A stretch of 49,911 nt of DNA, taken from the sequence record PZ445414.1; one strand, given 5' to 3'. The notes below the pieces were generated by a model. That model saw only the letters and a list, made by a program, of their open reading frames with translations, ran no database searches and was not told where the DNA came from. Of the stretch, positions 3,683-26,102 are shown in pieces. Source of the stretch: a phage. A program made the translations under genes and the position numbers. How positions within the stretch are numbered: position 1 is the first letter of the stretch; the number at the start of each line of letters is the position of its first letter.

Positions 3683-4798
3683 ATGAAAAAGGTACAGCGT
3701 TTTGATAGCGTTCAGGTGAAAGCAAAGATTGACGAGCACGGTTTTCTTGTAGACCGTCCGATTGTTGCCCGTATCGGCTTGCAGGTTTACAAAACTCCGT
3801 TTGGGGAGCGTAGAGAGTTTCGCCCTGCATCGGAGGTTTTTAAGGCTGACTCATTGGCTACGTTTTCCGGCAAGCCTGTCACAATCGGTCATGTAACGGT
3901 TACGCCGGAGAATGCAAAAGAGGTTGTAGTTGGTGCGTGTGCTGGCGCTGGCGTGCCAAACGGGATCGGCGTTGAGGTTCCGTTGAGCATTTACGACAAG
4001 CGAGCCATTCAGAGCGCGAAGAAAAAACAGACTGCGGAGTTATCGGTTGGCTACACCTCAGTTGATATTGATAAACCAGGCTGGGGGAATAATGCCACTG
4101 GTGAGTATTTCTTTGATGAAGATATGCCTGAGGGCTGGAAAGCTGACTCGGATGATTGGGTGCGATTCGATGCGGTTCAAACGAATATAAGCGTGAATCA
4201 TATCGCTATGGTGTTCAAAGGCCGCGCAGGTATCGCAAAATTAAATCTTGATAGCGAACAGGAATTCCCGTATCATGACGAGGAATTTTCAAACAAAGAG
4301 GATGAAGTTATGACCGTAAAAATCAAACTGGACGGCGCGGTAGAGTTTGACGTGCCAAAAGAGGTAGCAGCTCACATCAACGCGATCACCGCAAAAGCAG
4401 ATGCAGCAACCGCAAAAGCTGACGGCCTGGAAGCGGAGCGTGATGCACTGAAAGCAAAAGTAGACGGCATTCCGGCACAAATCGAGGCTGCGGTTGCTAA
4501 GGCAAAAGCTGATGCAGAGGCGCACGCCGAACTGGTTGCGATTGCTGGTGAGGCTGGCGTTAAGTGCGACGGCCTGGACGCAAAAGCGATCAAAGTTGCC
4601 TACGTCAAAGAGGTTACTGGCGCTGACATCGCAGAGAAAACCGACGCTTATATTGATGCTGCGTTTGATCTGGCGAAAAACTCTGATAAAATGGCAGCAC
4701 AGCGCAAAGCCATTAAAGGCGATGCAGAGAAGCAAGAGAAGCAAGACGGCGAAGATAAACCGCTGAATCCTGCGGCTCGTTTGGCTAAAGTACAGTAA
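3683..4798 (+). CDS. scaffolding protein, possibly with N-terminal protease-like domain
   Basis: 371 aa; strong SD (AGAGGAG); C-terminal half Ala/Lys/Glu-rich predicted coiled coil typical of scaffolds; position before capsid genes. Confidence 0.45.
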   Translation: MKKVQRFDSVQVKAKIDEHGFLVDRPIVARIGLQVYKTPFGERREFRPASEVFKADSLATFSGKPVTIGHVTVTPENAKEVVVGACAGAGVPNGIGVEVPLSIYDKRAIQSAKKKQTAELSVGYTSVDIDKPGWGNNATGEYFFDEDMPEGWKADSDDWVRFDAVQTNISVNHIAMVFKGRAGIAKLNLDSEQEFPYHDEEFSNKEDEVMTVKIKLDGAVEFDVPKEVAAHINAITAKADAATAKADGLEAERDALKAKVDGIPAQIEAAVAKAKADAEAHAELVAIAGEAGVKCDGLDAKAIKVAYVKEVTGADIAEKTDAYIDAAFDLAKNSDKMAAQRKAIKGDAEKQEKQDGEDKPLNPAARLAKVQ

Positions 4799-15918: not shown

Positions 15919-15938
15919 AACAGCACAAATTGTTAAAA
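15919..15938 (+). promoter_or_regulatory. box variant (AACAGCAC-N5-GTTAAAA) in leader of J gene
   Basis: aacagcacaaattgttaaaa downstream of TGCTATAAT. Confidence 0.4.
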
Positions 15939-15953
15939 CTGGAGGCCAAAATT

Positions 15954-18900
15954 ATGATAAGCGGCAATAAGGGCGGCTCCTCTAAGCCGTACAAGCCAAA
16001 GGAGATGGAGGACAACCTGATCTCCATCAACAAAATCAAAATCCTCCTGGCGGTTTCAGACGGAGAGGTAGACGGCGAGTTTTCGCTAAAAAATCTCTAC
16101 CTTGACGACGTGCCAGTGCAAAACGCAGACGGATCGCTTAACTATAGCGGTGTTAGTGCTGAGTTCCGGCCAGGCACTCAAACGCAGGACTACATCAAGG
16201 GATTTTCAGACACGTCAAGCGAAATCACGATTCAGCGAGATCTGGCGCAGAATAACCCTTACAGCATTGCGGTAACAAACAAATCACTATCTGCTATCAG
16301 GATCAAAATCCTGATGCCTCAGGGCTACAAGCAGGAGGATAACGGCGATCTTGTTGGTGTTTCTGTGCAGTACGCAGTTGATATGGCAGTTGATGGCGGT
16401 TCGTTTAAGCGCGTGCTAACTGATACAATCACTGGTAAAACGACTAGCGGCTACGACAGGAGCCAGCGCATTGACCTGCCAAACTTCAACGAGCAGGTGA
16501 TTTTGCGAGTTAGTCGAGTTACGGAGGATTCAACATCAAGCCGCCTTGTCGATAAAATTCGTTTGCAGAGCTATGCGGAGGTTGTTGATGCAAAATTCCG
16601 TTATCCTCTGACTGGTTTAGTTTACGTTGAGTTTGATAGCGAGCTTTTCCCTAACCAGCTACCAAACATTTCTATCAAGAAGAAATGGAAGCTGATAAAC
16701 GTTCCTGTTAACTACGATCCAGAATCACGCGAATACTCAGGAAGCTGGAACGGTCTGTTTAAAAAGGCTTGGAGCAACAACCCAGCTTGGGTTCTGTATG
16801 ACCTGATCACCAATCAGCGCTACGGGCTAGACCAAAGAGAGCTTGGGATTGAGATTGACAAGTGGAGCATCTACGAGGCAGCACAGTATTGCGATCAGAT
16901 GGTTCCAGATGGCAAAGGAGGACTAGAGCCTCGCTATCTGTGTGATGTTGTTATCCAGAGCCAGATTGAAGCGTTTAACCTGATCCGTGATATTTGCTCT
17001 ATCTTCCGTGGCATGAGCTTTTGGAACGGAGAGAGCCTTTCTATCGTGGTGGATAAACCGCGTGATCCGTCTTACATTTTCAGTAATGACAACGTGGTTA
17101 ACGGCGATTTCCAGTACACCTTTGCAAGCGAGAAAAGCATGTACACGCAGTGTAACGTGACTTTCGACGACGAGCAAAACATGTACAGCCAGGATATTGA
17201 GGGCGTTTTCGACACTGAGGCCGCTTTGCGCTTTGGTCACAATCCGACAAGCATCACAGCAATCGGATGCACACGACGCAGCGAGGCGAACCGCCGAGGG
17301 CGCTGGATTCTCAAGACCAACCTGCGCAGCACCACGGTAAACTTTGCAACTGGTCTTGAGGGCATGATCCCGACAATCGGAGATGTGATCGCAATCGCGG
17401 ATAACTTCTGGGCTAGCAACTTGACGCTTAATCTTTCTGGGCGCGTCATGGAGGTTTCAGGGCTGCAAGTTTTCCTCCCGTTCCGAGTTGATGCGAGGCC
17501 TGGTGATTTTATCCTGATCAACAAGCCGGACGGAAAGCCAGTTAAGCGCACTATTTCACGAGTTAGCGCAGACGGGAAAACTATTGAGTTAAACGTTGGC
17601 TTTGGTTTCGACGTTAAGCCGGACACGGTTTTCGCAATCGACAGGACTGATCTTGCGTTGCAGCAGTACGTTGTTACCGGAATAACCAGGGGCGACGATA
17701 CGGAGCAATTCACGTACTCAATAACGGCTGTCGAATACGATCCAAACAAGTACGACGAGATTGATTACGGAGTGAACATTGACGACAGGCCAACAAGCAT
17801 TGTAAACCCTGGCGTGATGAAAGCGCCTGAAAATGTGCAGGTGTCCTCTTACTCTCGCATTGTTCAGGGGCAGAGCGTAGAAACGATGGTTGTTAGCTGG
17901 GATAAAGTCGAATACGCAAGCTTGTACGAGGTGCAATGGAGAAAGGACAATAGCAACTGGCTAAACGTTCCTCAGACTGCAAACAAAGAGGTTAGCGTTG
18001 AGGGTATTTACTCAGGCAACTACTTTGTAAGGGTTCGATCAGTATCCGCGTCTGGAAGCACGTCGCCGTGGTCTAGTGTTGTTTCAGCCGCATTAACTGG
18101 CAAGGTTGGCGAGCCTAAAATGCCTATTAACTTGACCGCCTCAGATAATGAGATATTTGGGATCCGCGTCAAGTGGGGTATACCTGAGGGTGCTGGCGAT
18201 ACTGCTTACATAGAGCTACAGCAAGCGCCGGACGTAGACGGAATGGCTAGCGAAGAAAACGCAACACTGCTAACTCTCGTTCCGTATCCTCAAATGGAGT
18301 ATTGGCACGCAACGTTACCACCTGGATATATCAACTGGTATCGAGTGCGAAGTGTTGACAGGATCGGAAACGTTTCTGCGTGGACTGACTTTGTGCGCGG
18401 TATGTCGTCAACTAACGTTGATGATATTTTAGGCGACATTCTTGATGATATTTTAAACTCTGCTGGGTTTGAGGAGTTCAAAGAGAATGCCGTAGATACT
18501 GCAAACAAGGTTAAAGACCAGGCGCAAAGCGTGATCCAGAATGCGCTAGCTATTGATACCAATCTGCGTTGGAACCGAGTAGAAAACGGGAAGCGTAAAG
18601 CGGAGCACGGACAGGCGCTTGAGCTTATCGCAAACGAAACAGAGGCGCGAATTCAGGCGGTTGAGGTTCTGCGAACTGAGTTTGACGAGGGCATCTCCTC
18701 TAACATTACAGAAGTCAAGAAATTGATTTCTAACGAGGCGGAAACGCGAGCGAGCCAGGTTCAGCAGTTAGACGCTACATTCACGAAAAAAGTTTCTGAC
18801 GTGAATGGTAGGGTTGACGGTGTTTCTCAAGAGATCGTTAAGACAAACGCAAACGTGAGTAGCGCACAGCAAGCGATTGCAAACGAGACTGAGGCAAGGA

Positions 18901-19532
18901 CTCAAGCGGTTAGCTCTCTTGACTCCAAGTTTACAGGGCAGATTAATGGCGTTAAGCAGGATTTATCCTCAAACGTCACGAGGTTGGATCAGTCTATCGC
19001 TAACGAGACTCAAGCGAGAGCCAGTGCTGACACTGCGTTGTCAACTCGTGTTGGTAAAACGGAATCGGCAATTACTCAGAAGCTTGACTCTTGGGTAGAC
19101 AACGGATCTATAGGTGCTCAGTACGCTCTCAAGCTTGGGATTAAACGTGCTGGTGTTGAGTACACGGCTGGAGTTTCGCTATCGCTAATCCAGTCAGGTA
19201 GCGAGATAAAATCTCAATTCCTGGTTGATGCGGCGAGGTTCGGGGTAATGACTAGGCAGGGAGGGAGCTACACATTGCCGTTTGTAGTTGATAATGGAAC
19301 GGTTATCATGAATACGGCGCTAATTAAAAACGGCTCTATAACAAACGCAATGATTGGTAACGTGATTCAGTCAAATAATTATGTTGCTGGCAAGTCCGGT
19401 TGGAGGCTGGACAAAAACGGAAACCTTGAGATCAATGGCAGCGCCGGAAATGGCAGACTGACCATTAACAATAACATTATCGCGGTTTACGATGGTAATG
19501 GTGTCTTGAGGGTTCGAATGGGGTTGTTCTAA
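15954..19532 (+). CDS. tail tip / host specificity protein J
   Basis: 1192 aa from ATG 15954 (SD GGAGG); N-terminus MISGNKGGSSKPYKPKE... like lambda J; FN3-like segments; repeated IANETEAR motifs near C-terminus. Confidence 0.8.
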   Translation: MISGNKGGSSKPYKPKEMEDNLISINKIKILLAVSDGEVDGEFSLKNLYLDDVPVQNADGSLNYSGVSAEFRPGTQTQDYIKGFSDTSSEITIQRDLAQNNPYSIAVTNKSLSAIRIKILMPQGYKQEDNGDLVGVSVQYAVDMAVDGGSFKRVLTDTITGKTTSGYDRSQRIDLPNFNEQVILRVSRVTEDSTSSRLVDKIRLQSYAEVVDAKFRYPLTGLVYVEFDSELFPNQLPNISIKKKWKLINVPVNYDPESREYSGSWNGLFKKAWSNNPAWVLYDLITNQRYGLDQRELGIEIDKWSIYEAAQYCDQMVPDGKGGLEPRYLCDVVIQSQIEAFNLIRDICSIFRGMSFWNGESLSIVVDKPRDPSYIFSNDNVVNGDFQYTFASEKSMYTQCNVTFDDEQNMYSQDIEGVFDTEAALRFGHNPTSITAIGCTRRSEANRRGRWILKTNLRSTTVNFATGLEGMIPTIGDVIAIADNFWASNLTLNLSGRVMEVSGLQVFLPFRVDARPGDFILINKPDGKPVKRTISRVSADGKTIELNVGFGFDVKPDTVFAIDRTDLALQQYVVTGITRGDDTEQFTYSITAVEYDPNKYDEIDYGVNIDDRPTSIVNPGVMKAPENVQVSSYSRIVQGQSVETMVVSWDKVEYASLYEVQWRKDNSNWLNVPQTANKEVSVEGIYSGNYFVRVRSVSASGSTSPWSSVVSAALTGKVGEPKMPINLTASDNEIFGIRVKWGIPEGAGDTAYIELQQAPDVDGMASEENATLLTLVPYPQMEYWHATLPPGYINWYRVRSVDRIGNVSAWTDFVRGMSSTNVDDILGDILDDILNSAGFEEFKENAVDTANKVKDQAQSVIQNALAIDTNLRWNRVENGKRKAEHGQALELIANETEARIQAVEVLRTEFDEGISSNITEVKKLISNEAETRASQVQQLDATFTKKVSDVNGRVDGVSQEIVKTNANVSSAQQAIANETEARTQAVSSLDSKFTGQINGVKQDLSSNVTRLDQSIANETQARASADTALSTRVGKTESAITQKLDSWVDNGSIGAQYALKLGIKRAGVEYTAGVSLSLIQSGSEIKSQFLVDAARFGVMTRQGGSYTLPFVVDNGTVIMNTALIKNGSITNAMIGNVIQSNNYVAGKSGWRLDKNGNLEINGSAGNGRLTINNNIIAVYDGNGVLRVRMGLF

Positions 19533-19538
19533 CAGAAA

Positions 19539-19567
19539 AGGGAGCCTTGCGGCTCCCTCTTTTTTTA
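19539..19567. terminator. bidirectional terminator between J (+) and secreted-protein gene (-)
   Basis: gggagcc ttgc ggctccc tctttttttt; A-rich on the other side. Confidence 0.7.
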
Positions 19568-19897
19568 CATCAATTTGTTGTGGTCAACAGGGATTCTGTT
19601 TGTTTGCTTGGTGATCATATCAAGCTTGTATTCATCGCCGCGATTCCACTCGAAGCGAAGGGTATACGTGTTAGCGTCACCGTGGCACATTACGTGCTTG
19701 AATTTGCGCAAGTGCTTGTCAAAGATCGCGTTTGTGCTCTCCTCAATCTTCACCGTCCGATCTGAGCAGTTTACAACGGCGACGGTTGAGCCAGTAAGAG
19801 ACATTCTGGAAGCTTCAACCGGATAGCCGATATTAACGTTCAAAGCCATAGCGTTTAAAGGCGCTACAAGAGCCATAGCGAGCATGATTTTTTTCAT
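19565..19897 (-). CDS. small secreted protein (signal peptide, 2 Cys); candidate moron
   Basis: 110 aa; N-terminal signal peptide MKKIMLAMALVAPLNAMA; own box-type promoter; opposite strand to structural operon; flanked by hairpins. Confidence 0.6.
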   Translation of the reverse strand: MKKIMLAMALVAPLNAMALNVNIGYPVEASRMSLTGSTVAVVNCSDRTVKIEESTNAIFDKHLRKFKHVMCHGDANTYTLRFEWNRGDEYKLDMITKQTNRIPVDHNKLM

Positions 19898-19953
19898 TTG
19901 TATTTCCTCGTTTCGTTAAGTTGAAATGAGTATAGCCCCATTTGCGGGGCTTG

Positions 19954-19972
19954 TTTTAGCAATTCGTGCGGT
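19954..19972 (-). promoter_or_regulatory. box variant upstream of secreted-protein gene
   Basis: minus-strand CCGCACGAATTGCTAAAA followed by hairpin, TATACT and conserved leader. Confidence 0.4.
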
Positions 19973-20625
19973 TAGTTGTAACCCTGGAATTTCGCGTATG
20001 GTATTTTGAGGTTTCCGCACCCGTTAAAGATTTCAGAGAAAGAGCGCTGGTTTCTTCTGATCCAGTATGTCTGCAACTGCGAACCAGTCCAGCGCATGAG
20101 GTTGCCTGAATAACCCTGCGTTTCTCCGTCGTCGCTCCATTCGCCGTAGCAGGCATCCCATAGAAAGAATGGGTTAAAACCTGGAGTCACGGAGGCAACT
20201 CTAGCCTCAAGATTGAAAGACGCTGGAACGTCAAGGAATCCCATTATTCGAGGCATTGTTGCGGCGCTGGCGGCAGTCCAAACAAGATTACCGGAAGCGT
20301 CGAATACGTCGAGATAGCCGGACTTAAGTGCCTTGTTTCTCGAAGTCCTGATTATCCTGATTGCGTTAGTGCTGAACATATCCGCGCCAGGGTAGCCCCA
20401 CTGGTTATTACCTGTAAACTGAATCCAGGTTAGAAAGCCATCCTTGCGCTTATCACCATCGCGAAGATTGCCAAGGGCTTTAACGTCGCCAAATGGCGTG
20501 CTTAGGCTGTAAGCCCCAACGTCAATTAGCGGTTGCGGAGTGTAGATAGAATCAAAGATCGTATGCTTTTGATCGGAGTTGATCAGGACAACCCCCGCGT
20601 TATTACGTACCTCAAAGCCTGACAT
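19972..20625 (-). CDS. hypothetical protein (possibly tail-associated)
   Basis: 217 aa; SD AGGAGG; shares DASGNLV motif with 20634..20939. Confidence 0.5.
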   Translation of the reverse strand: MSGFEVRNNAGVVLINSDQKHTIFDSIYTPQPLIDVGAYSLSTPFGDVKALGNLRDGDKRKDGFLTWIQFTGNNQWGYPGADMFSTNAIRIIRTSRNKALKSGYLDVFDASGNLVWTAASAATMPRIMGFLDVPASFNLEARVASVTPGFNPFFLWDACYGEWSDDGETQGYSGNLMRWTGSQLQTYWIRRNQRSFSEIFNGCGNLKIPYAKFQGYN

Positions 20626-20633
20626 AAAGCCTC

Positions 20634-20939
20634 CTAGTTAAACATGTAAACTTCAATGGTAAGAGTCTGATCAGCAAACGGATTGCTTGTTGGCAGGTAA
20701 AGAACATCAACGCCGCCGTTTCTCGTCACGGCTGCATAGCTTTGTTTATACACAGCGCCAGCAGATGCCGCCATGACAACCGCGAACGAGTTGGAACCAG
20801 TCAGCCCAGCTACGTTGAAAGAAACCGAGCGAGTAGTTCGCGGGAATGAAATGTTTTTCCGGACAACAAAGCGCGTACTGAAATCGCCAAGATCGACAAC
20901 CAGGTTTCCGCTTGCATCCCATGCTTGAAGACCAGGCAT
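20634..20939 (-). CDS. hypothetical protein (paralogous motif DASGNLV)
   Basis: 101 aa; SD GAGAGGTGG; driven by sigma70-like promoter in AT-rich region. Confidence 0.5.
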   Translation of the reverse strand: MPGLQAWDASGNLVVDLGDFSTRFVVRKNISFPRTTRSVSFNVAGLTGSNSFAVVMAASAGAVYKQSYAAVTRNGGVDVLYLPTSNPFADQTLTIEVYMFN

Positions 20940-20975: not shown

Positions 20976-21004
20976 AATATACAGGCGCGGCGTAATCATT
21001 TCAA
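20976..21004 (-). promoter_or_regulatory. sigma70-like promoter TTGAAA-N17-TATATT (minus strand)
   Basis: reverse complement of 20976-21004; upstream of minus gene starting 20939. Confidence 0.55.
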
Positions 21005-21125
21005 TGGCAAATGCAAAACCTTACCTTAATTGTTCTTTTTGTTTCTCTGTGTTCTCGATTGCACCCACCGCAGAATCGCACAACGTTTTAGAACAGAAAA
21101 AACAAAATAAATCATCTATAATATA

Positions 21126-21157
21126 TAATAAAATCAATAGTTTAGTTTATATGTATT
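21126..21157. repeat. conserved ~30-bp AT-rich element containing IHF-consensus-like AATCAATAGTTTA (copy A)
   Basis: taataaaatcaatagtttagtttatatgtat; near-identical copy at 40555. Confidence 0.5.
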
Positions 21158-21388
21158 TGTATGTTGTTATTTATTGTTTCCAATGTTTCAGTGTTAATTG
21201 ATGTACTGGCTTTCTTTAGTCTGGATATCTCTATTATCCATTTGATGTGTGTATTTATATAAACCCCACCGCAAATCCGTGAACAATGAAACAAAAAATA
21301 ACGACGTTTAAAATCATGCACTTAAGAGCTGATTTTGTTATCGGGGTTGAAAGATGTGTTTCGAGAACAGAAAAAACAATTGAAGGTA

Positions 21389-21416
21389 TTGACTAAACGC
21401 CACAAATGGCTACAAT
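21389..21416 (+). promoter_or_regulatory. sigma70-like promoter TTGACT-N16-TACAAT for recombination module
   Basis: ttgact 21389-21394, tacaat 21411-21416; ~30 nt upstream of exonuclease ATG. Confidence 0.6.
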
Positions 21417-24032: not shown

Positions 24033-24058
24033 AAGCCCCCAATTGGGGGCTTTTTTAT
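24033..24058. terminator. bidirectional terminator between ssb (+) and tail fibre (-)
   Basis: aaaag ccccc aatt ggggg cttttttatt. Confidence 0.8.
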
Positions 24059-26058
24059 TACTTGTTTTTCAGCATTACGATGTCAGCCTTTAACGCTTCA
24101 ATCTCTGCTTTCTGCGCATCAATTAGATCGCGCATTTCCTTGAATGCCTCAACATACAGCGCGGATAATGCGTTGTAGTCGAGCGTTAGCGGGTTTTCCA
24201 CCTTGTCACAATTCTTTGTAAGCACATTGTGATCTTTTCCCTCTGTGACGCTAACAGCCTCCGGTAGCACCTTCTGCACGTCCTGCGCGATCACGCCAGC
24301 ATTTCGAACGGTATTCTGAATCGTGGTGTGCATGGAGTATGTAACGCCGCGCAGGGAGCAAATCTTATCAAGCGCACCAGTTACGGGCTTGATCCAGAAT
24401 TTCGCTCGCTCGTCTGACGTTGCAGTGAATTTCACCGCCTTACATTCACCCGTTGCGCCGTAAATGCTGAGTGCTTGGCCACCCGCGCCAGTGCTAGCAT
24501 TATCAGATCGCAATTGCAACACTTGCGTATCGTTTGAGTAAATCACGGCACGGTTTCTGCCAGATCTGTTTTGCAGCCATACGTGAGTATTGTCACTTCC
24601 ATCACCTCCGCGAACGTATGCGCTAGAGCCGTCAACAAACAAATTGCCTTGGCAGTTTGTGTCACCTCCGTTAAGTCGAATGCGATCTGAGATCTGAATG
24701 CCTTTTTTGTGTACATAACTCCAAAGGCCAATGCTATCATCATTGTTAGATGGATTCCCCACCCATCCTGTGTTCTTGTTCAGATCGTTGAACATGATGT
24801 AATGCGAGTTTCCAGCAGTTCTAGGCCTGACAACAAACGAATCAGCATCCCATGACGTGTACAGCTTCGTCCTAAGGTTGATATCAGAGGTTTCAATGGT
24901 GAGGCGCCCACCATTAAACAGATATCCGCCAGCAATGTTTGCGCTCATATATCCAGCAGTAAACCTTAGGTTCCCGCCTCCGTTCGCATCTCTGTTCATT
25001 CCGTCGCAGTAAATTCGCGCGTCGTAGTCATACTTTCCGCTGTAGTGAAGATCAATGTAGGCCGTTGAGTTTTTTGTTCGGTAGCCTAACTCAAGCTGAT
25101 TAGCCTCCACCCCCATTGACGCAACAAGGTTAGGTACGCTGAAATCACCAGTAGGAGACAATGACGCGAACTGCGGAGAGTTTTGGTTGCTCCTGTTAAT
25201 GATTGAAATGTTCTGGTTGCGATCCGCCCTAAACTCTGCCTGTGACAATATTGTGCTTCCGCTCATTAGCTGAGCAGCGAATGCGGCGCTGGGGTTGTCA
25301 TTGTTTGCGTTTGAAGGAGTTCTGATCAGATATCCGTTAGCTGTGATCGCATTACCAAACTCAACCGTGCTACTCTTACCCAACCCCAAATTTTCTCTTG
25401 ATGTTGGCTTGTCAGCAACATCACTCAAGTTATTAGCTTTCTTCAACTGGTTATCAGGGTTTGCAGTTTGTGCGCGGTCTGCTTCCGATTTTGCGCGATC
25501 CGCTTGCTGCGTTGCCGTTGTAGCTGATGCCGCCGCAGCGCTCTTTGACGCGTTTGCGCTTGATGCGGCTGTCTGAGCCTCGTTCTTTGCTGTATTTGCC
25601 GCGCTTGCACTGCTTGCTGCGTTTGTTTCGCTTGATTTTGCAGACTTTGCGCTTGCGTCAGCAGCGGCGGCGTTTGCTTCCGTGTTTCGCTCAAGTTGCT
25701 CCAGCTTTTGCCAATCAAAGCTTTTCAGGAAGTCAACAAACTCCTGATACATTGTTTCCTGACCCTGGTAATAACGCAGAGTTTCGGCAACATCTTGCGC
25801 CAGGCCGTCAACCGTCAGAGAGTCATGAAGCAGGATCACATAGTCTCCGCGAGGCACTACCGCGCCGCCAGTAGACGTGGCACGCAGTGAGGTATCATTC
25901 ACGATCTCGCTAATGGTTGCGTATGCAACCGGATTGGATGCAAACACGATTGTTGCACCTGGACGAATCAGCGTTAATGCTGTTTTCCACTTTGTTCCGT
26001 AACCAGTGATATAGCCGTTAGCGTCCATTGACGCTTGACCAGTGCGATAAATAGCCAT
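24058..26058 (-). CDS. side tail fibre protein with C-terminal intramolecular-chaperone-like domain
   Basis: 666 aa from ATG 26058 (SD GGAGA); Ala/Ser-rich low-complexity region; C-terminal TSDERAKFWIKPV...LDYNALSALYVEAFKE resembles S74 autoproteolytic chaperone domain. Confidence 0.65.
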   Translation of the reverse strand: MAIYRTGQASMDANGYITGYGTKWKTALTLIRPGATIVFASNPVAYATISEIVNDTSLRATSTGGAVVPRGDYVILLHDSLTVDGLAQDVAETLRYYQGQETMYQEFVDFLKSFDWQKLEQLERNTEANAAAADASAKSAKSSETNAASSASAANTAKNEAQTAASSANASKSAAAASATTATQQADRAKSEADRAQTANPDNQLKKANNLSDVADKPTSRENLGLGKSSTVEFGNAITANGYLIRTPSNANNDNPSAAFAAQLMSGSTILSQAEFRADRNQNISIINRSNQNSPQFASLSPTGDFSVPNLVASMGVEANQLELGYRTKNSTAYIDLHYSGKYDYDARIYCDGMNRDANGGGNLRFTAGYMSANIAGGYLFNGGRLTIETSDINLRTKLYTSWDADSFVVRPRTAGNSHYIMFNDLNKNTGWVGNPSNNDDSIGLWSYVHKKGIQISDRIRLNGGDTNCQGNLFVDGSSAYVRGGDGSDNTHVWLQNRSGRNRAVIYSNDTQVLQLRSDNASTGAGGQALSIYGATGECKAVKFTATSDERAKFWIKPVTGALDKICSLRGVTYSMHTTIQNTVRNAGVIAQDVQKVLPEAVSVTEGKDHNVLTKNCDKVENPLTLDYNALSALYVEAFKEMRDLIDAQKAEIEALKADIVMLKNK

Positions 26059-26073
26059 ATGTAAAATCTCCCA

Positions 26074-26092
26074 AATAGCACGTTTTGTTAAT
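26074..26092 (+). promoter_or_regulatory. conserved box in leader of (minus-strand) tail fibre gene, inverted relative to gene
   Basis: aatagcacgttttgttaa between TGCTATAAT (minus) and tail-fibre SD. Confidence 0.45.
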
Positions 26093-26102
26093 GACAAGTC
26101 GG

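What the first reader, a model, noticed from the sequence alone, without database searches (positions are those of the whole stretch)
19972..20939. Pair of minus-strand proteins sharing a DASGNLV motif next to the tail tip gene
Seen in sequence: 20634..20939 (AWDASGNLVVD) and 19972..20625 (VFDASGNLVWT) share a short motif and are expressed from a canonical promoter in the AT-rich region, convergent with J. Inference: distal tail/receptor-binding accessory proteins or a duplicated domain; function unknown.
Basis: partly seen in the sequence, partly recalled or inferred. Interest (0 to 1): 0.35.

Follow-up and report, generated by a model that had tools for sequence, protein, structure and literature searches.

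The report
Two-part receptor-binding tip of phage IsaakIselin
These two genes are the already published, predicted receptor-binding proteins of coliphage IsaakIselin, which sit at the tail tip and target the YncD/PqqU transporter. Their shared DASGNLV motif is a conserved β-hairpin that more likely helps assemble the tip than contacts the receptor.

Summary

The window is the complete genome of Escherichia phage IsaakIselin (Bas10, MZ501077.1). The ORFs are bas10_0025/QXV80560 (217 aa) and bas10_0026/QXV80561 (101 aa).

The identity of the pair is already published:
- Maffei 2021 describes this position as the "bona fide RBP locus" downstream of gpJ and shows that Bas10 needs YncD.
- A 2025 Science Advances paper names the proteins RBP-1 and RBP-2. 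Its AlphaFold2-Multimer model has them dimerise on the outer face of PqqU (YncD).
- The same paper names the next gene SIP-1, a likely superinfection-exclusion factor.

My analysis adds four points:
- The pair is a fixed small-then-large module, adjacent in 81 of 82 related loci.
- It travels with a matching C-terminal end of J and with a SIP-1 homologue, across Drexlerviridae, lambdoid prophages and an N4-like Acinetobacter podovirus.
- Similarity between the two proteins is limited to one β-hairpin. There is no detectable whole-domain duplication.
- That hairpin is the most conserved part of both families and recurs in otherwise unalignable modules such as the T1 type.

I read the hairpin as a docking or assembly element rather than receptor contact. 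That step is inference. The finding is already known and of modest interest.

The parts
15954..19532 (+). J-like central tail fibre / tail tip protein (bas10_0023). The ORF can also be read from a TTG at 15930.
19173..19529 (+). C-terminal tip domain of J (last 119 aa), ending ...VYDGNGVLRVRMGLF. It lacks a lambda-type receptor-binding domain.
   Evidence: It is 39-58% identical across different RBP-module types and is found in 1771 phage records. It aligns to lambda TipJ profile positions 909-1004 of 1163. The last 14 aa segregate by module type.
19539..19558 (.). Bidirectional intrinsic terminator shared by J and the minus-strand operon.
   Evidence: AGGGAGCC-TTGC-GGCTCCCT is followed by a T-run on both strands.
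19565..19897 (-). SIP-1 (bas10_0024/QXV80559), 110 aa, with an N-terminal signal peptide. Putative superinfection-exclusion protein acting on the periplasmic side of PqqU.
   Evidence: A homologue was found in all 82 loci of the first scan and, in the larger pooled set, in all but 15 loci, many of which are truncated.
19934..19951 (.). GC-rich hairpin between the RBP-1 stop and the SIP-1 start. Function not established.
19972..20625 (-). RBP-1 (bas10_0025/QXV80560), 217 aa, 24 kDa. The large subunit of the receptor-binding tip. PHROG 4524, with a precomputed Pfam tag PF28254.
   Evidence: AF2 model pLDDT 88. No signal peptide or TM segment. No relative among solved structures.
20019..20019 (-). 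The only base in the window that differs from MZ501077.1 (A versus G). It gives R203C in RBP-1.
   Evidence: Arg is present at this position in 85 of 93 distinct homologues and Cys in none.
20278..20313 (-). Internal hairpin motif of RBP-1 (residues 105-116, LDVFDASGNLVW).
   Evidence: It lies in the most conserved block of the family (residues 101-110 = 0.87). It forms a beta-hairpin in the AF2 model, with pLDDT about 80 against 88-97 in flanking blocks.
20578..20619 (-). N-terminal hairpin of RBP-1 (residues 3-16, GFEVRNNAGVVLIN). A degenerate third copy of the motif.
   Evidence: Nearly invariant M1, G3, F4, E5, N8, G11, S17. pLDDT about 60. It aligns to the N-terminus of RBP-2 over 33 columns.
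20634..20939 (-). RBP-2 (bas10_0026/QXV80561), 101 aa, 10.8 kDa. The small beta-sandwich subunit. PHROG 7961.
   Evidence: AF2 pLDDT 88. Only generic beta-sandwich matches in the PDB. There are 53 cluster representatives, nearly all about 95-108 aa apart from a few short fragments.
20895..20930 (-). N-terminal hairpin motif of RBP-2 (residues 4-15, LQAWDASGNLVV).
   Evidence: Residues 1-20 are the most conserved part of the family (0.68-0.71 against 0.19-0.48 elsewhere). pLDDT is 73 against above 90 in most later blocks.
20976..21004 (-). Sigma-70-like promoter TTGAAA-17-TATATT upstream of RBP-2, followed by the ribosome-binding site AGAGGTGG.
   Evidence: Positionally conserved in 7 Drexlerviridae relatives.

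Best explanation
The two ORFs encode the two subunits of the receptor-binding tip of phage IsaakIselin (Bas10): RBP-2 (101 aa) and RBP-1 (217 aa).

Proposed mechanism:
- The J-like central fibre ends in a conserved C-terminal domain and has no receptor-binding domain of its own.
- RBP-2 and RBP-1 form a heterodimer that attaches non-covalently to that tip.
- The heterodimer recognises the open, PQQ-free state of the TonB-dependent transporter YncD/PqqU. That binding commits the phage to DNA injection.

Expression: the genes are transcribed from their own promoter as an operon, RBP-2 -> RBP-1 -> SIP-1, convergent with J. SIP-1 is exported to the periplasm and is thought to block the same receptor from inside, preventing superinfection.

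The motif: DASGNLV is the turn and second strand of a beta-hairpin with consensus G-h-x-h-[W/F]-D-x-x-G-x-h-h. It opens RBP-2, recurs in the middle of RBP-1, and appears in degenerate form at the N-terminus of RBP-1. I propose that it is an assembly element. It would dock onto the J tip and/or form the interface between the subunits, and would not touch the receptor.

Status of each step:
- Shown by others: the phage depends on YncD.
- Predicted by others: the RBP-1/RBP-2/PqqU complex and the SIP-1 complex.
- Shown here: module conservation, co-variation with the J tip, and the conservation pattern of the motif.
- Inferred: virion location and the docking role of the hairpin.
For: Identity: the window is MZ501077.1 rotated by 533 bp, with a single SNP.

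Literature:
- Bas10 needs yncD, and the defect is complemented. RBP loci downstream of gpJ match receptor specificity (PMC8594841).
- AF2-Multimer places an RBP-1 + RBP-2 dimer on the extracellular face of open PqqU, and SIP-1 on the periplasmic side. PQQ blocks infection (PMC12124388).
- A YncD-specific protein family at this locus was confirmed across 255 phages (bioRxiv 10.64898/2026.04.02.716166).
- The analogous LptD-class RBP and its exclusion protein have cryo-EM structures (PMC12685063).

- Homologues occur in the YncD-dependent phage IME347 at 64% and 74% identity.
- Small-then-large adjacency on one strand holds in 81 of 82 loci.
- In HK639-type lambdoid phages the pair follows J on the same strand with overlapping stop and start codons.
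- The last 14 aa of J segregate with module type...LRVRMGL[W/F] in 127 of 129 YncD-type loci, and ...LRV[Q/E][I/V]G..TG.W in 11 of 13 T1-type loci.
- The same J ending plus small and large homologues occurs in the N4-like Acinetobacter podophage Presley.
- Neither RBP has a signal peptide or TM segment.

- A shared 7-mer arises in 3 of 20,000 shuffles.
- The hairpin lies in the most conserved block of both families.
- It is a beta-hairpin with locally lower pLDDT in both monomer models.
- The same hairpin sits at the same positions in T1/FhuA-type, atuna-type, Dhillonvirus and Pseudomonas modules, whose remaining sequence is unalignable.
Against: - There are no virion proteomics, cryo-EM, pull-down or gene-swap data for the YncD class. 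The receptor complex is a prediction.
- AF2-Multimer studies of analogous modules could not settle the stoichiometry or the position of the small protein (PMC12309495).
- I could not run a multimer model, so no result here shows the hairpin touching J.
- The loose form of the hairpin pattern is common: 10 matches in this proteome against 2.7 expected.
- A motif HMM does not detect the J C-terminus or the RBP-1 N-terminal copy above noise.
- PHROG labels the T1-type counterparts 'outer membrane protein' and 'membrane associated protein', although nothing in the sequences supports that.
Confidence: 0.8

Rival explanations
1. The hairpin motif is part of the receptor-contact surface. It would be conserved because both subunits insert similar loops into the PqqU pocket.
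For: Both proteins are predicted to contact PqqU. Exposed hairpins are typical receptor-contacting elements in other RBPs, as in the LptD-class loops.
Against: The same hairpin is retained at the same positions in modules linked to other receptors (T1/FhuA-type, Dhillonvirus, Pseudomonas), while the rest of those proteins is unalignable. It also stays constant across E. coli, Klebsiella, Enterobacter and Acinetobacter phages, whose receptors must differ. In the LptD class, conserved residues map to the base of the RBP, away from the receptor.
Confidence: 0.12
2. RBP-2 is an assembly chaperone for RBP-1, like lambda Tfa or T4 gp38-type helpers. It would be absent from the mature virion, leaving RBP-1 as the sole receptor binder.
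For: Small genes next to fibre genes are often chaperones. In AF2-Multimer work on analogous modules, the large 'hand-like' protein alone capped the trimeric spike with better scores than the small protein.
Against: There is no match to tail-fibre-assembly families in Pfam or NCBIfam. The gene order is small before large, with translational coupling to J. The published model has both proteins on PqqU. A band of about 13 kDa was seen in virions of a phage with an analogous module, although it was unassigned.
Confidence: 0.12
3. The two proteins arose by duplication. RBP-1 would be two RBP-2-like domains, and the motif would be the last visible trace of homology.
For: There are three hairpin copies, each followed 6-9 residues later by a long strand. 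The C-terminal part of RBP-1 from the motif onward (113 aa) is about the length of RBP-2. Residues 102-177 of the HK639 large protein hit a small-protein PHROG (2427) at E = 4.7e-4. In F2 pyocin the counterparts are predicted to have one and two Ig-like domains (PMC13455828).
Against: Outside the hairpin, profile-profile scores are no better than column-permuted controls (z from -1.6 to 1.5). A profile search of 1.84 billion proteins with the RBP-2 family found only stand-alone small proteins and no large ones. Foldseek did not place the two models in a common fold.
Confidence: 0.3
4. The proteins are not virion components. They would be membrane-associated host-takeover or exclusion proteins, as the PHROG labels for the T1-type counterparts suggest.
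For: PHROG 557 is labelled 'outer membrane protein' and PHROG 425 'membrane associated protein'. In Drexlerviridae the genes have their own promoter and share an operon with SIP-1.
Against: Neither RBP has a signal peptide, lipobox or hydrophobic segment. In 73 of 80 loci the pair lies on the same strand as J, and in HK639 the genes overlap stop-to-start. The J tip co-varies with the module. Published membrane-affinity estimates for the counterparts are low.
Confidence: 0.04

Closest known systems
'Bona fide RBP locus' downstream of gpJ in small siphoviruses, YncD/PqqU class (Maffei et al. 2021, PMC8594841; RBP-1/RBP-2/SIP-1 of IsaakIselin, PMC12124388)
   Same: It is the same object: the same phage, the same genes (QXV80560, QXV80561, QXV80559) and the same proposed role.
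   Different: Nothing differs in identity. The published work does not describe the shared hairpin motif, its recurrence across module types, or the match between J ending and module. The window also carries R203C in RBP-1 relative to the deposited record.
T1/FhuA-type and Dhillonvirus 'small Ig-like + hand-like' tip module (PHROG 557 + 425; Matusiak et al. 2025, PMC12309495)
   Same: Same position after a J that lacks a receptor-binding domain. Same sizes (about 100 aa, then about 200-230 aa). Same companion exclusion gene. Same three hairpin positions.
   Different: No detectable sequence homology outside the hairpin. Different receptor. The exclusion protein there is a Cor-like lipoprotein rather than a TonB-C-terminal-like periplasmic protein.
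Phage T5 pb5 / Llp (PMC9586334)
   Same: A separately encoded RBP attached to the tip of a trimeric central fibre. It binds a TonB-dependent transporter (FhuA), and a phage-encoded exclusion protein acts on the periplasmic side of the same receptor.
   Different: pb5 is a single large polypeptide, not a heterodimer. There is no sequence or fold match. Llp is a lipoprotein.
Phage lambda gpJ C-terminal receptor-binding domain
   Same: Same place in the tail. The IsaakIselin J aligns to lambda TipJ up to about position 1004 of 1163, which is where the lambda RBD begins.
   Different: In lambda the RBD is part of J, is present as three identical copies, and binds trimeric LamB. Here it is replaced by two separate, unlike polypeptides that bind a monomeric transporter.
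LptD-class RBP and Rtp45 exclusion protein of Oekolampad/Rtp (PMC12685063)
   Same: Same locus logic (RBP plus exclusion gene after J). This class has been validated experimentally by cryo-EM.
   Different: It has a single RBP from an ORF of about 930-960 bp (roughly 310-320 aa) instead of a small + large pair, and it belongs to an unrelated sequence family.

Membership tests
RBP locus downstream of gpJ, YncD/PqqU class (Maffei 2021) | Encoded directly downstream of the J-like central fibre gene | tested here: met
   J ends at 19532. SIP-1, RBP-1 and RBP-2 occupy 19565-20939.
RBP locus downstream of gpJ, YncD/PqqU class (Maffei 2021) | The phage uses YncD as its terminal receptor | not testable with these tools
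   Experimental in the literature: a yncD knockout abolishes plating of Bas10 and a plasmid complements it. PQQ blocks infection.
RBP locus downstream of gpJ, YncD/PqqU class (Maffei 2021) | Homologous alleles in other YncD-dependent phages | tested here: met
   IME347 (YncD): the small protein is 63.6% identical and the large 73.7%.
RBP locus downstream of gpJ, YncD/PqqU class (Maffei 2021) | A cognate superinfection-exclusion gene in the locus | tested here: met
   A 110-aa protein with a signal peptide lies at 19565-19897. A homologue was found in all 82 loci of the first scan. The exclusion function itself is only predicted.
RBP locus downstream of gpJ, YncD/PqqU class (Maffei 2021) | The proteins are part of the virion tail tip | not tested
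   No proteomics or structure was found for this class. The T1 cryo-EM model stops at residue 820 of the fibre.
Small + large tip module on a J lacking an RBD (T1-type, PHROG 557/425; Matusiak 2025) | J ends in the conserved C-terminal tip domain without a lambda-type RBD | tested here: met
Small + large tip module on a J lacking an RBD (T1-type, PHROG 557/425; Matusiak 2025) | Gene order: a protein of about 100 aa, then one of about 200-230 aa | tested here: met
   101 aa then 217 aa. The arrangement holds in 81 of 82 loci.
Small + large tip module on a J lacking an RBD (T1-type, PHROG 557/425; Matusiak 2025) | Sequence homology to PHROG 557 / PHROG 425 members | tested here: not met
   IsaakIselin falls in PHROG 7961 and 4524. 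HMM and hhalign comparisons against T1-type proteins detect only the 10-11-column hairpin.
Small + large tip module on a J lacking an RBD (T1-type, PHROG 557/425; Matusiak 2025) | Shared folds (small Ig-like sandwich; 'hand-like' large protein) | tested here: inconclusive
   The RBP-2 model is a beta-sandwich with only generic PDB matches. The RBP-1 model matches uncharacterised phage proteins in BFVD at TM 0.5-0.6. No T1-type model was built for a direct comparison.
Tail fibre assembly chaperones (Tfa / gp38-like) | Match to a known chaperone family | tested here: not met
   No hits in Pfam or NCBIfam for either protein.
T5 pb5-type RBP | Sequence or fold similarity to pb5 | tested here: not met
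   No match among PDB sequences or in Foldseek.

The most novel reading that the evidence does not exclude
The small + large pair is a pseudo-threefold cap. It would comprise three hairpin-led beta domains, one in RBP-2 and two in RBP-1, and would take the place of the three identical RBD copies of lambda gpJ. Each hairpin would engage one chain of the trimeric J tip. This converts a threefold fibre into an asymmetric tip suited to monomeric TonB-dependent transporters. The hairpin plus the last roughly 15-30 residues of J would then form a portable 'plug and socket' that lets receptor modules move between siphoviruses, lambdoid prophages, N4-like podoviruses and probably F-type pyocins. The evidence so far is:
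- three hairpin positions recur across module types;
- the J ending co-varies with the module;
- the Presley transfer shows movement between morphotypes;
- the pyocin counterparts are predicted to have 1 + 2 Ig-like domains;
- the combined length is 318 aa, about 3 x 106.
Probability: 0.3. Interest if true: 0.55.

Novelty: already known. Interest (0 to 1): 0.3.

Why it matters
The locus determines which outer-membrane protein the phage uses, so it matters for predicting and engineering host range. That point is already made in the literature for this very phage.

What this analysis adds is practical. If the conserved hairpin and the matching J ending are the attachment interface, a receptor-module swap between phages would need to carry the last residues of J together with the two RBP genes. 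The hairpin pattern and the gene sizes also give a simple way to recognise such modules in unannotated genomes. Many of them are currently labelled 'hypothetical' or, wrongly, 'outer membrane protein'.

Tried and rejected
- **Whole-protein homology between the two ORFs.** BLASTP and hhalign, including split halves, a more diverse small-protein alignment and column-permutation controls, found nothing beyond the hairpin.
- **The C-terminus of J as a further motif copy.** A degenerate regex matched IAVYDGNGVLRV at the end of J. I wrote that pattern after seeing J. A motif HMM does not recover it, and a looser pattern is common in the proteome. I therefore treat it as a resemblance only.
- **Solved structures.** There is no sequence or fold relative for RBP-1, RBP-2 or the T1-type counterparts.
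- **Family libraries.** Pfam and NCBIfam give nothing for either protein. The precomputed tag PF28254 on RBP-1 homologues is absent from the local Pfam copy and from the paper library, so its name is unknown to me.
- **Co-variation of the turn residues (D-x-x-G) between the two proteins within a phage.** The pairs track phylogeny and give no clear signal.
- **Virion proteomics for close relatives** such as NBD2. No such data were found in the searchable library.
Full report
**What the window is.** The 1951 bases around the finding match Escherichia phage IsaakIselin (Bas10, MZ501077.1; Drexlerviridae, Tempevirinae) at 99.9% identity. The whole window equals that 49,911-bp record rotated by 533 bp, with a single base difference. 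The two ORFs are bas10_0025/QXV80560 (217 aa, 19972-20625, minus strand) and bas10_0026/QXV80561 (101 aa, 20634-20939, minus strand). Both are annotated 'hypothetical protein'. A third minus-strand gene, bas10_0024/QXV80559 (110 aa, 19565-19897), lies between them and the end of J.

**The observation.** Coordinates, strand, lengths and both peptide strings are correct. The proteins share the exact 7-mer DASGNLV. Only 3 of 20,000 shuffles of the two sequences share any 7-mer. Six of the seven codons differ between the copies, so selection on the protein maintains the identity and there has been no recent DNA copying. Within each family the core residues are invariant: W7, D8, G11, L13 in the small protein and D106, V107, F108, G112 in the large one. 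The exact DASGNLV match is peculiar to the IsaakIselin clade. More distant pairs keep [W/F]-D-x-x-G-x-[L/V] with variable turn residues.

**Operon layout.**
- The genes are convergent with J.
- A promoter-like site, TTGAAA-17-TATATT, followed by AGAGGTGG-N4-ATG, precedes the small gene at the edge of a 25-28% GC spacer.
- Seven Drexlerviridae relatives have a promoter-like pair at the same distance from the start codon, even where the sequence differs.
- The large gene follows the small one after an 8-base gap. Its ribosome-binding site, GGAGG, overlaps the TAG stop codon of the small gene.
- The operon ends at a hairpin, 19539-19558, that has T-runs on both strands and also terminates J.

**What is already known.**
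- Maffei et al. [quoted passage not shown] They matched allelic variants to receptors and showed by knockout and complementation that Bas10 needs YncD.
- The 2025 Science Advances paper on PqqU (= YncD) modelled these exact proteins. RBP-1 (QXV80560) and RBP-2 (QXV80561) dimerise on the extracellular face of open PqqU. The PQQ-bound closed state clashes with them, which explains why PQQ blocks infection.
- In the same paper SIP-1 (QXV80559) binds the periplasmic face, resembles the TonB C-terminus and carries a signal peptide.
- A 2026 preprint with 255 phages confirms a YncD-specific family at this locus. It notes that the RBPs often have one or two accessory proteins, and that the C-terminal tip of GpJ tracks specificity.
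- The LptD class has been validated by cryo-EM.
- For the YncD class there is no experimental structure or virion proteomics. The T1 cryo-EM model stops at residue 820 of the fibre.

**Is it a duplicated domain?**
- BLASTP aligns 11 residues (E = 0.033).
- hhalign aligns 13-33 columns at 2-24% probability. This held for whole families, split halves and a more diverse small-protein alignment.
- With the hairpin removed, scores are no better than column-permuted controls (z from -1.6 to 1.5).
- A profile search of 1.84 billion representatives with the small family returned 53 hits. Nearly all are stand-alone proteins of about 95-108 aa, a few are short fragments, and none is a large protein.
- Sequence therefore supports a shared motif only.
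- Some weak hints of a 1+2-domain layout remain. A degenerate third copy sits at the N-terminus of RBP-1 (GFEVRNNAGVVLIN). All three hairpins have similar secondary-structure contexts. One PHROG hit links the C-terminal half of the HK639 large protein to a small-protein family (E = 4.7e-4). In F2 pyocin the counterparts are predicted to have one and two Ig-like domains.

**Structure.**
- AF2 gives confident monomer models: RBP-1 has pLDDT 88 and pTM 0.82, and RBP-2 has pLDDT 88.
- In both models the motif forms a beta-hairpin.
- All three hairpin regions score below most of the rest of each model: about 60 at the RBP-1 N-terminus, about 80 at the RBP-1 centre and 73 at the RBP-2 N-terminus. 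That would fit elements that need a partner.
- Neither model has a significant PDB neighbour.
- RBP-1 matches uncharacterised proteins of Acinetobacter, Xanthomonas, Pseudomonas, Proteus and Pectobacterium phages in BFVD.
- Neither RBP has a signal peptide or hydrophobic segment. SIP-1 does have a signal peptide.

**The pair is a mobile module tied to the J tip.**
- Homologues of the two proteins are adjacent, on the same strand and in small-then-large order in 81 of 82 loci.
- In 73 of the 80 loci where J was found, the pair lies on the same strand as J. In HK639 the three genes overlap stop-to-start. In 7 Drexlerviridae loci the pair is inverted relative to J.
- A SIP-1 homologue was found in all 82 loci of that scan. 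In the lambdoid loci it is a lipoprotein on the opposite strand, and it is unannotated in the HK639 record.
- The last 119 aa of J form a widespread domain: 1771 phage records, 39-58% identity across module types. It aligns to lambda TipJ just before the lambda RBD.
- The last 14 residues of J segregate with module type...LRVRMGL[W/F] in 127 of 129 YncD-type loci, and ...LRV[Q/E][I/V]G..TG.W in 11 of 13 T1-type loci.
- In the N4-like Acinetobacter podovirus Presley, a giant tail protein ends ...VYDDNNVLRVRMGLW and is followed by small and large homologues carrying the same hairpins.

**The hairpin is shared by otherwise unrelated modules.** PeterMerian, atuna, T1 and Dhillonvirus loci have the same architecture: about 100 aa, then about 200-230 aa, then a small lipoprotein. 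Their proteins fall in different PHROGs, 557 and 425, and are unalignable to the YncD-type proteins. They nevertheless carry the hairpin at the small N-terminus (YGISTWDANG), the large N-terminus (YGAFIDVNGNPF) and the middle of the large protein (MAIWDASG near residue 113). A Pseudomonas siphovirus shows GLITRDASGN and ALIVRDESGN at the two N-termini.

Two caveats apply. The loose pattern is not rare in proteins generally (10 observed against 2.7 expected in this proteome). The weight of the argument therefore rests on positional recurrence and on the hairpin being the conservation peak of each family.

**Interpretation.** A segment that stays constant while the rest of the proteins and the receptor change, and that travels with a conserved J ending, is more likely to mediate assembly onto J or between the subunits than receptor contact. 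This is an inference and I could not run a multimer model. I give about 0.8 to the tip-RBP identity and roughly 0.55 to the docking role of the hairpin.

**Verdict.** The additions here are the motif analysis, the J-ending/module pairing and the cross-morphotype distribution. These are incremental and partly inferential.

Noticed in passing
window 20019: This is the only base in the whole 49,911-bp window that differs from GenBank MZ501077.1 (A versus G). It changes Arg203 to Cys in RBP-1. Arg is present at this position in 85 of 93 distinct homologues and Cys in none. A single random SNP would land in this gene 1.3% of the time, so it may be an adaptive or laboratory variant of the receptor-binding protein.
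   Followed up: partly
whole window: The window is the complete IsaakIselin genome rotated by 533 bp relative to the deposited record. It starts at the terminase large subunit gene.
   Followed up: yes
window 19539-19558: A single GC-rich hairpin with T-runs on both strands serves as a bidirectional terminator for J (+) and the RBP-2/RBP-1/SIP-1 operon (-).
   Followed up: partly
window 19934-19951: A GC hairpin (GCCCCGCAAATGGGGC) lies between the RBP-1 stop and the SIP-1 start, with no T-run on the minus strand. It might attenuate or stabilise the transcript and so set the RBP:SIP-1 ratio.
   Followed up: no
L002 (HK639) 3903-4295, minus strand: In HK639-type lambdoid phages the SIP-1 homologue is a lipoprotein (MKLLFAAALLLVAGC...). 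It is encoded convergently with the large RBP gene and is not annotated in the HK639 record. In IsaakIselin SIP-1 has a plain signal peptide with no lipobox.
   Followed up: partly
L164 (Acinetobacter phage Presley) 3649-4986: In this N4-like podovirus, a giant tail protein ends with the same ...LRVRMGLW tail as YncD-type J proteins. It is followed by homologues of RBP-2 (106 aa) and RBP-1 (224 aa). This implies transfer of the whole tip module between morphotypes.
   Followed up: partly
window 21000-21400: This 25-28% GC spacer sits between the divergent RBP operon and the exonuclease VIII gene. A second promoter-like site, TTGACT-16-TACAAT, lies at 21389-21416 on the plus strand.
   Followed up: no
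window 24058-26097, minus strand: The lateral tail fibre gene (bas10_0031) is read from a TTG 39 bases upstream of the annotated start in the mechanical ORF list. Similarly, the J ORF can be extended to a TTG at 15930, against the annotated start at 15954.
   Followed up: no
proteins P0045-P0070: RBP-1 homologues of 213 aa are common in Enterobacter, Salmonella, Kosakonia and E. coli chromosomes (contigs of several hundred kb to over 4 Mb), presumably within HK639-like prophages. They carry a precomputed Pfam tag PF28254 that is missing from the local Pfam copy.
   Followed up: partly
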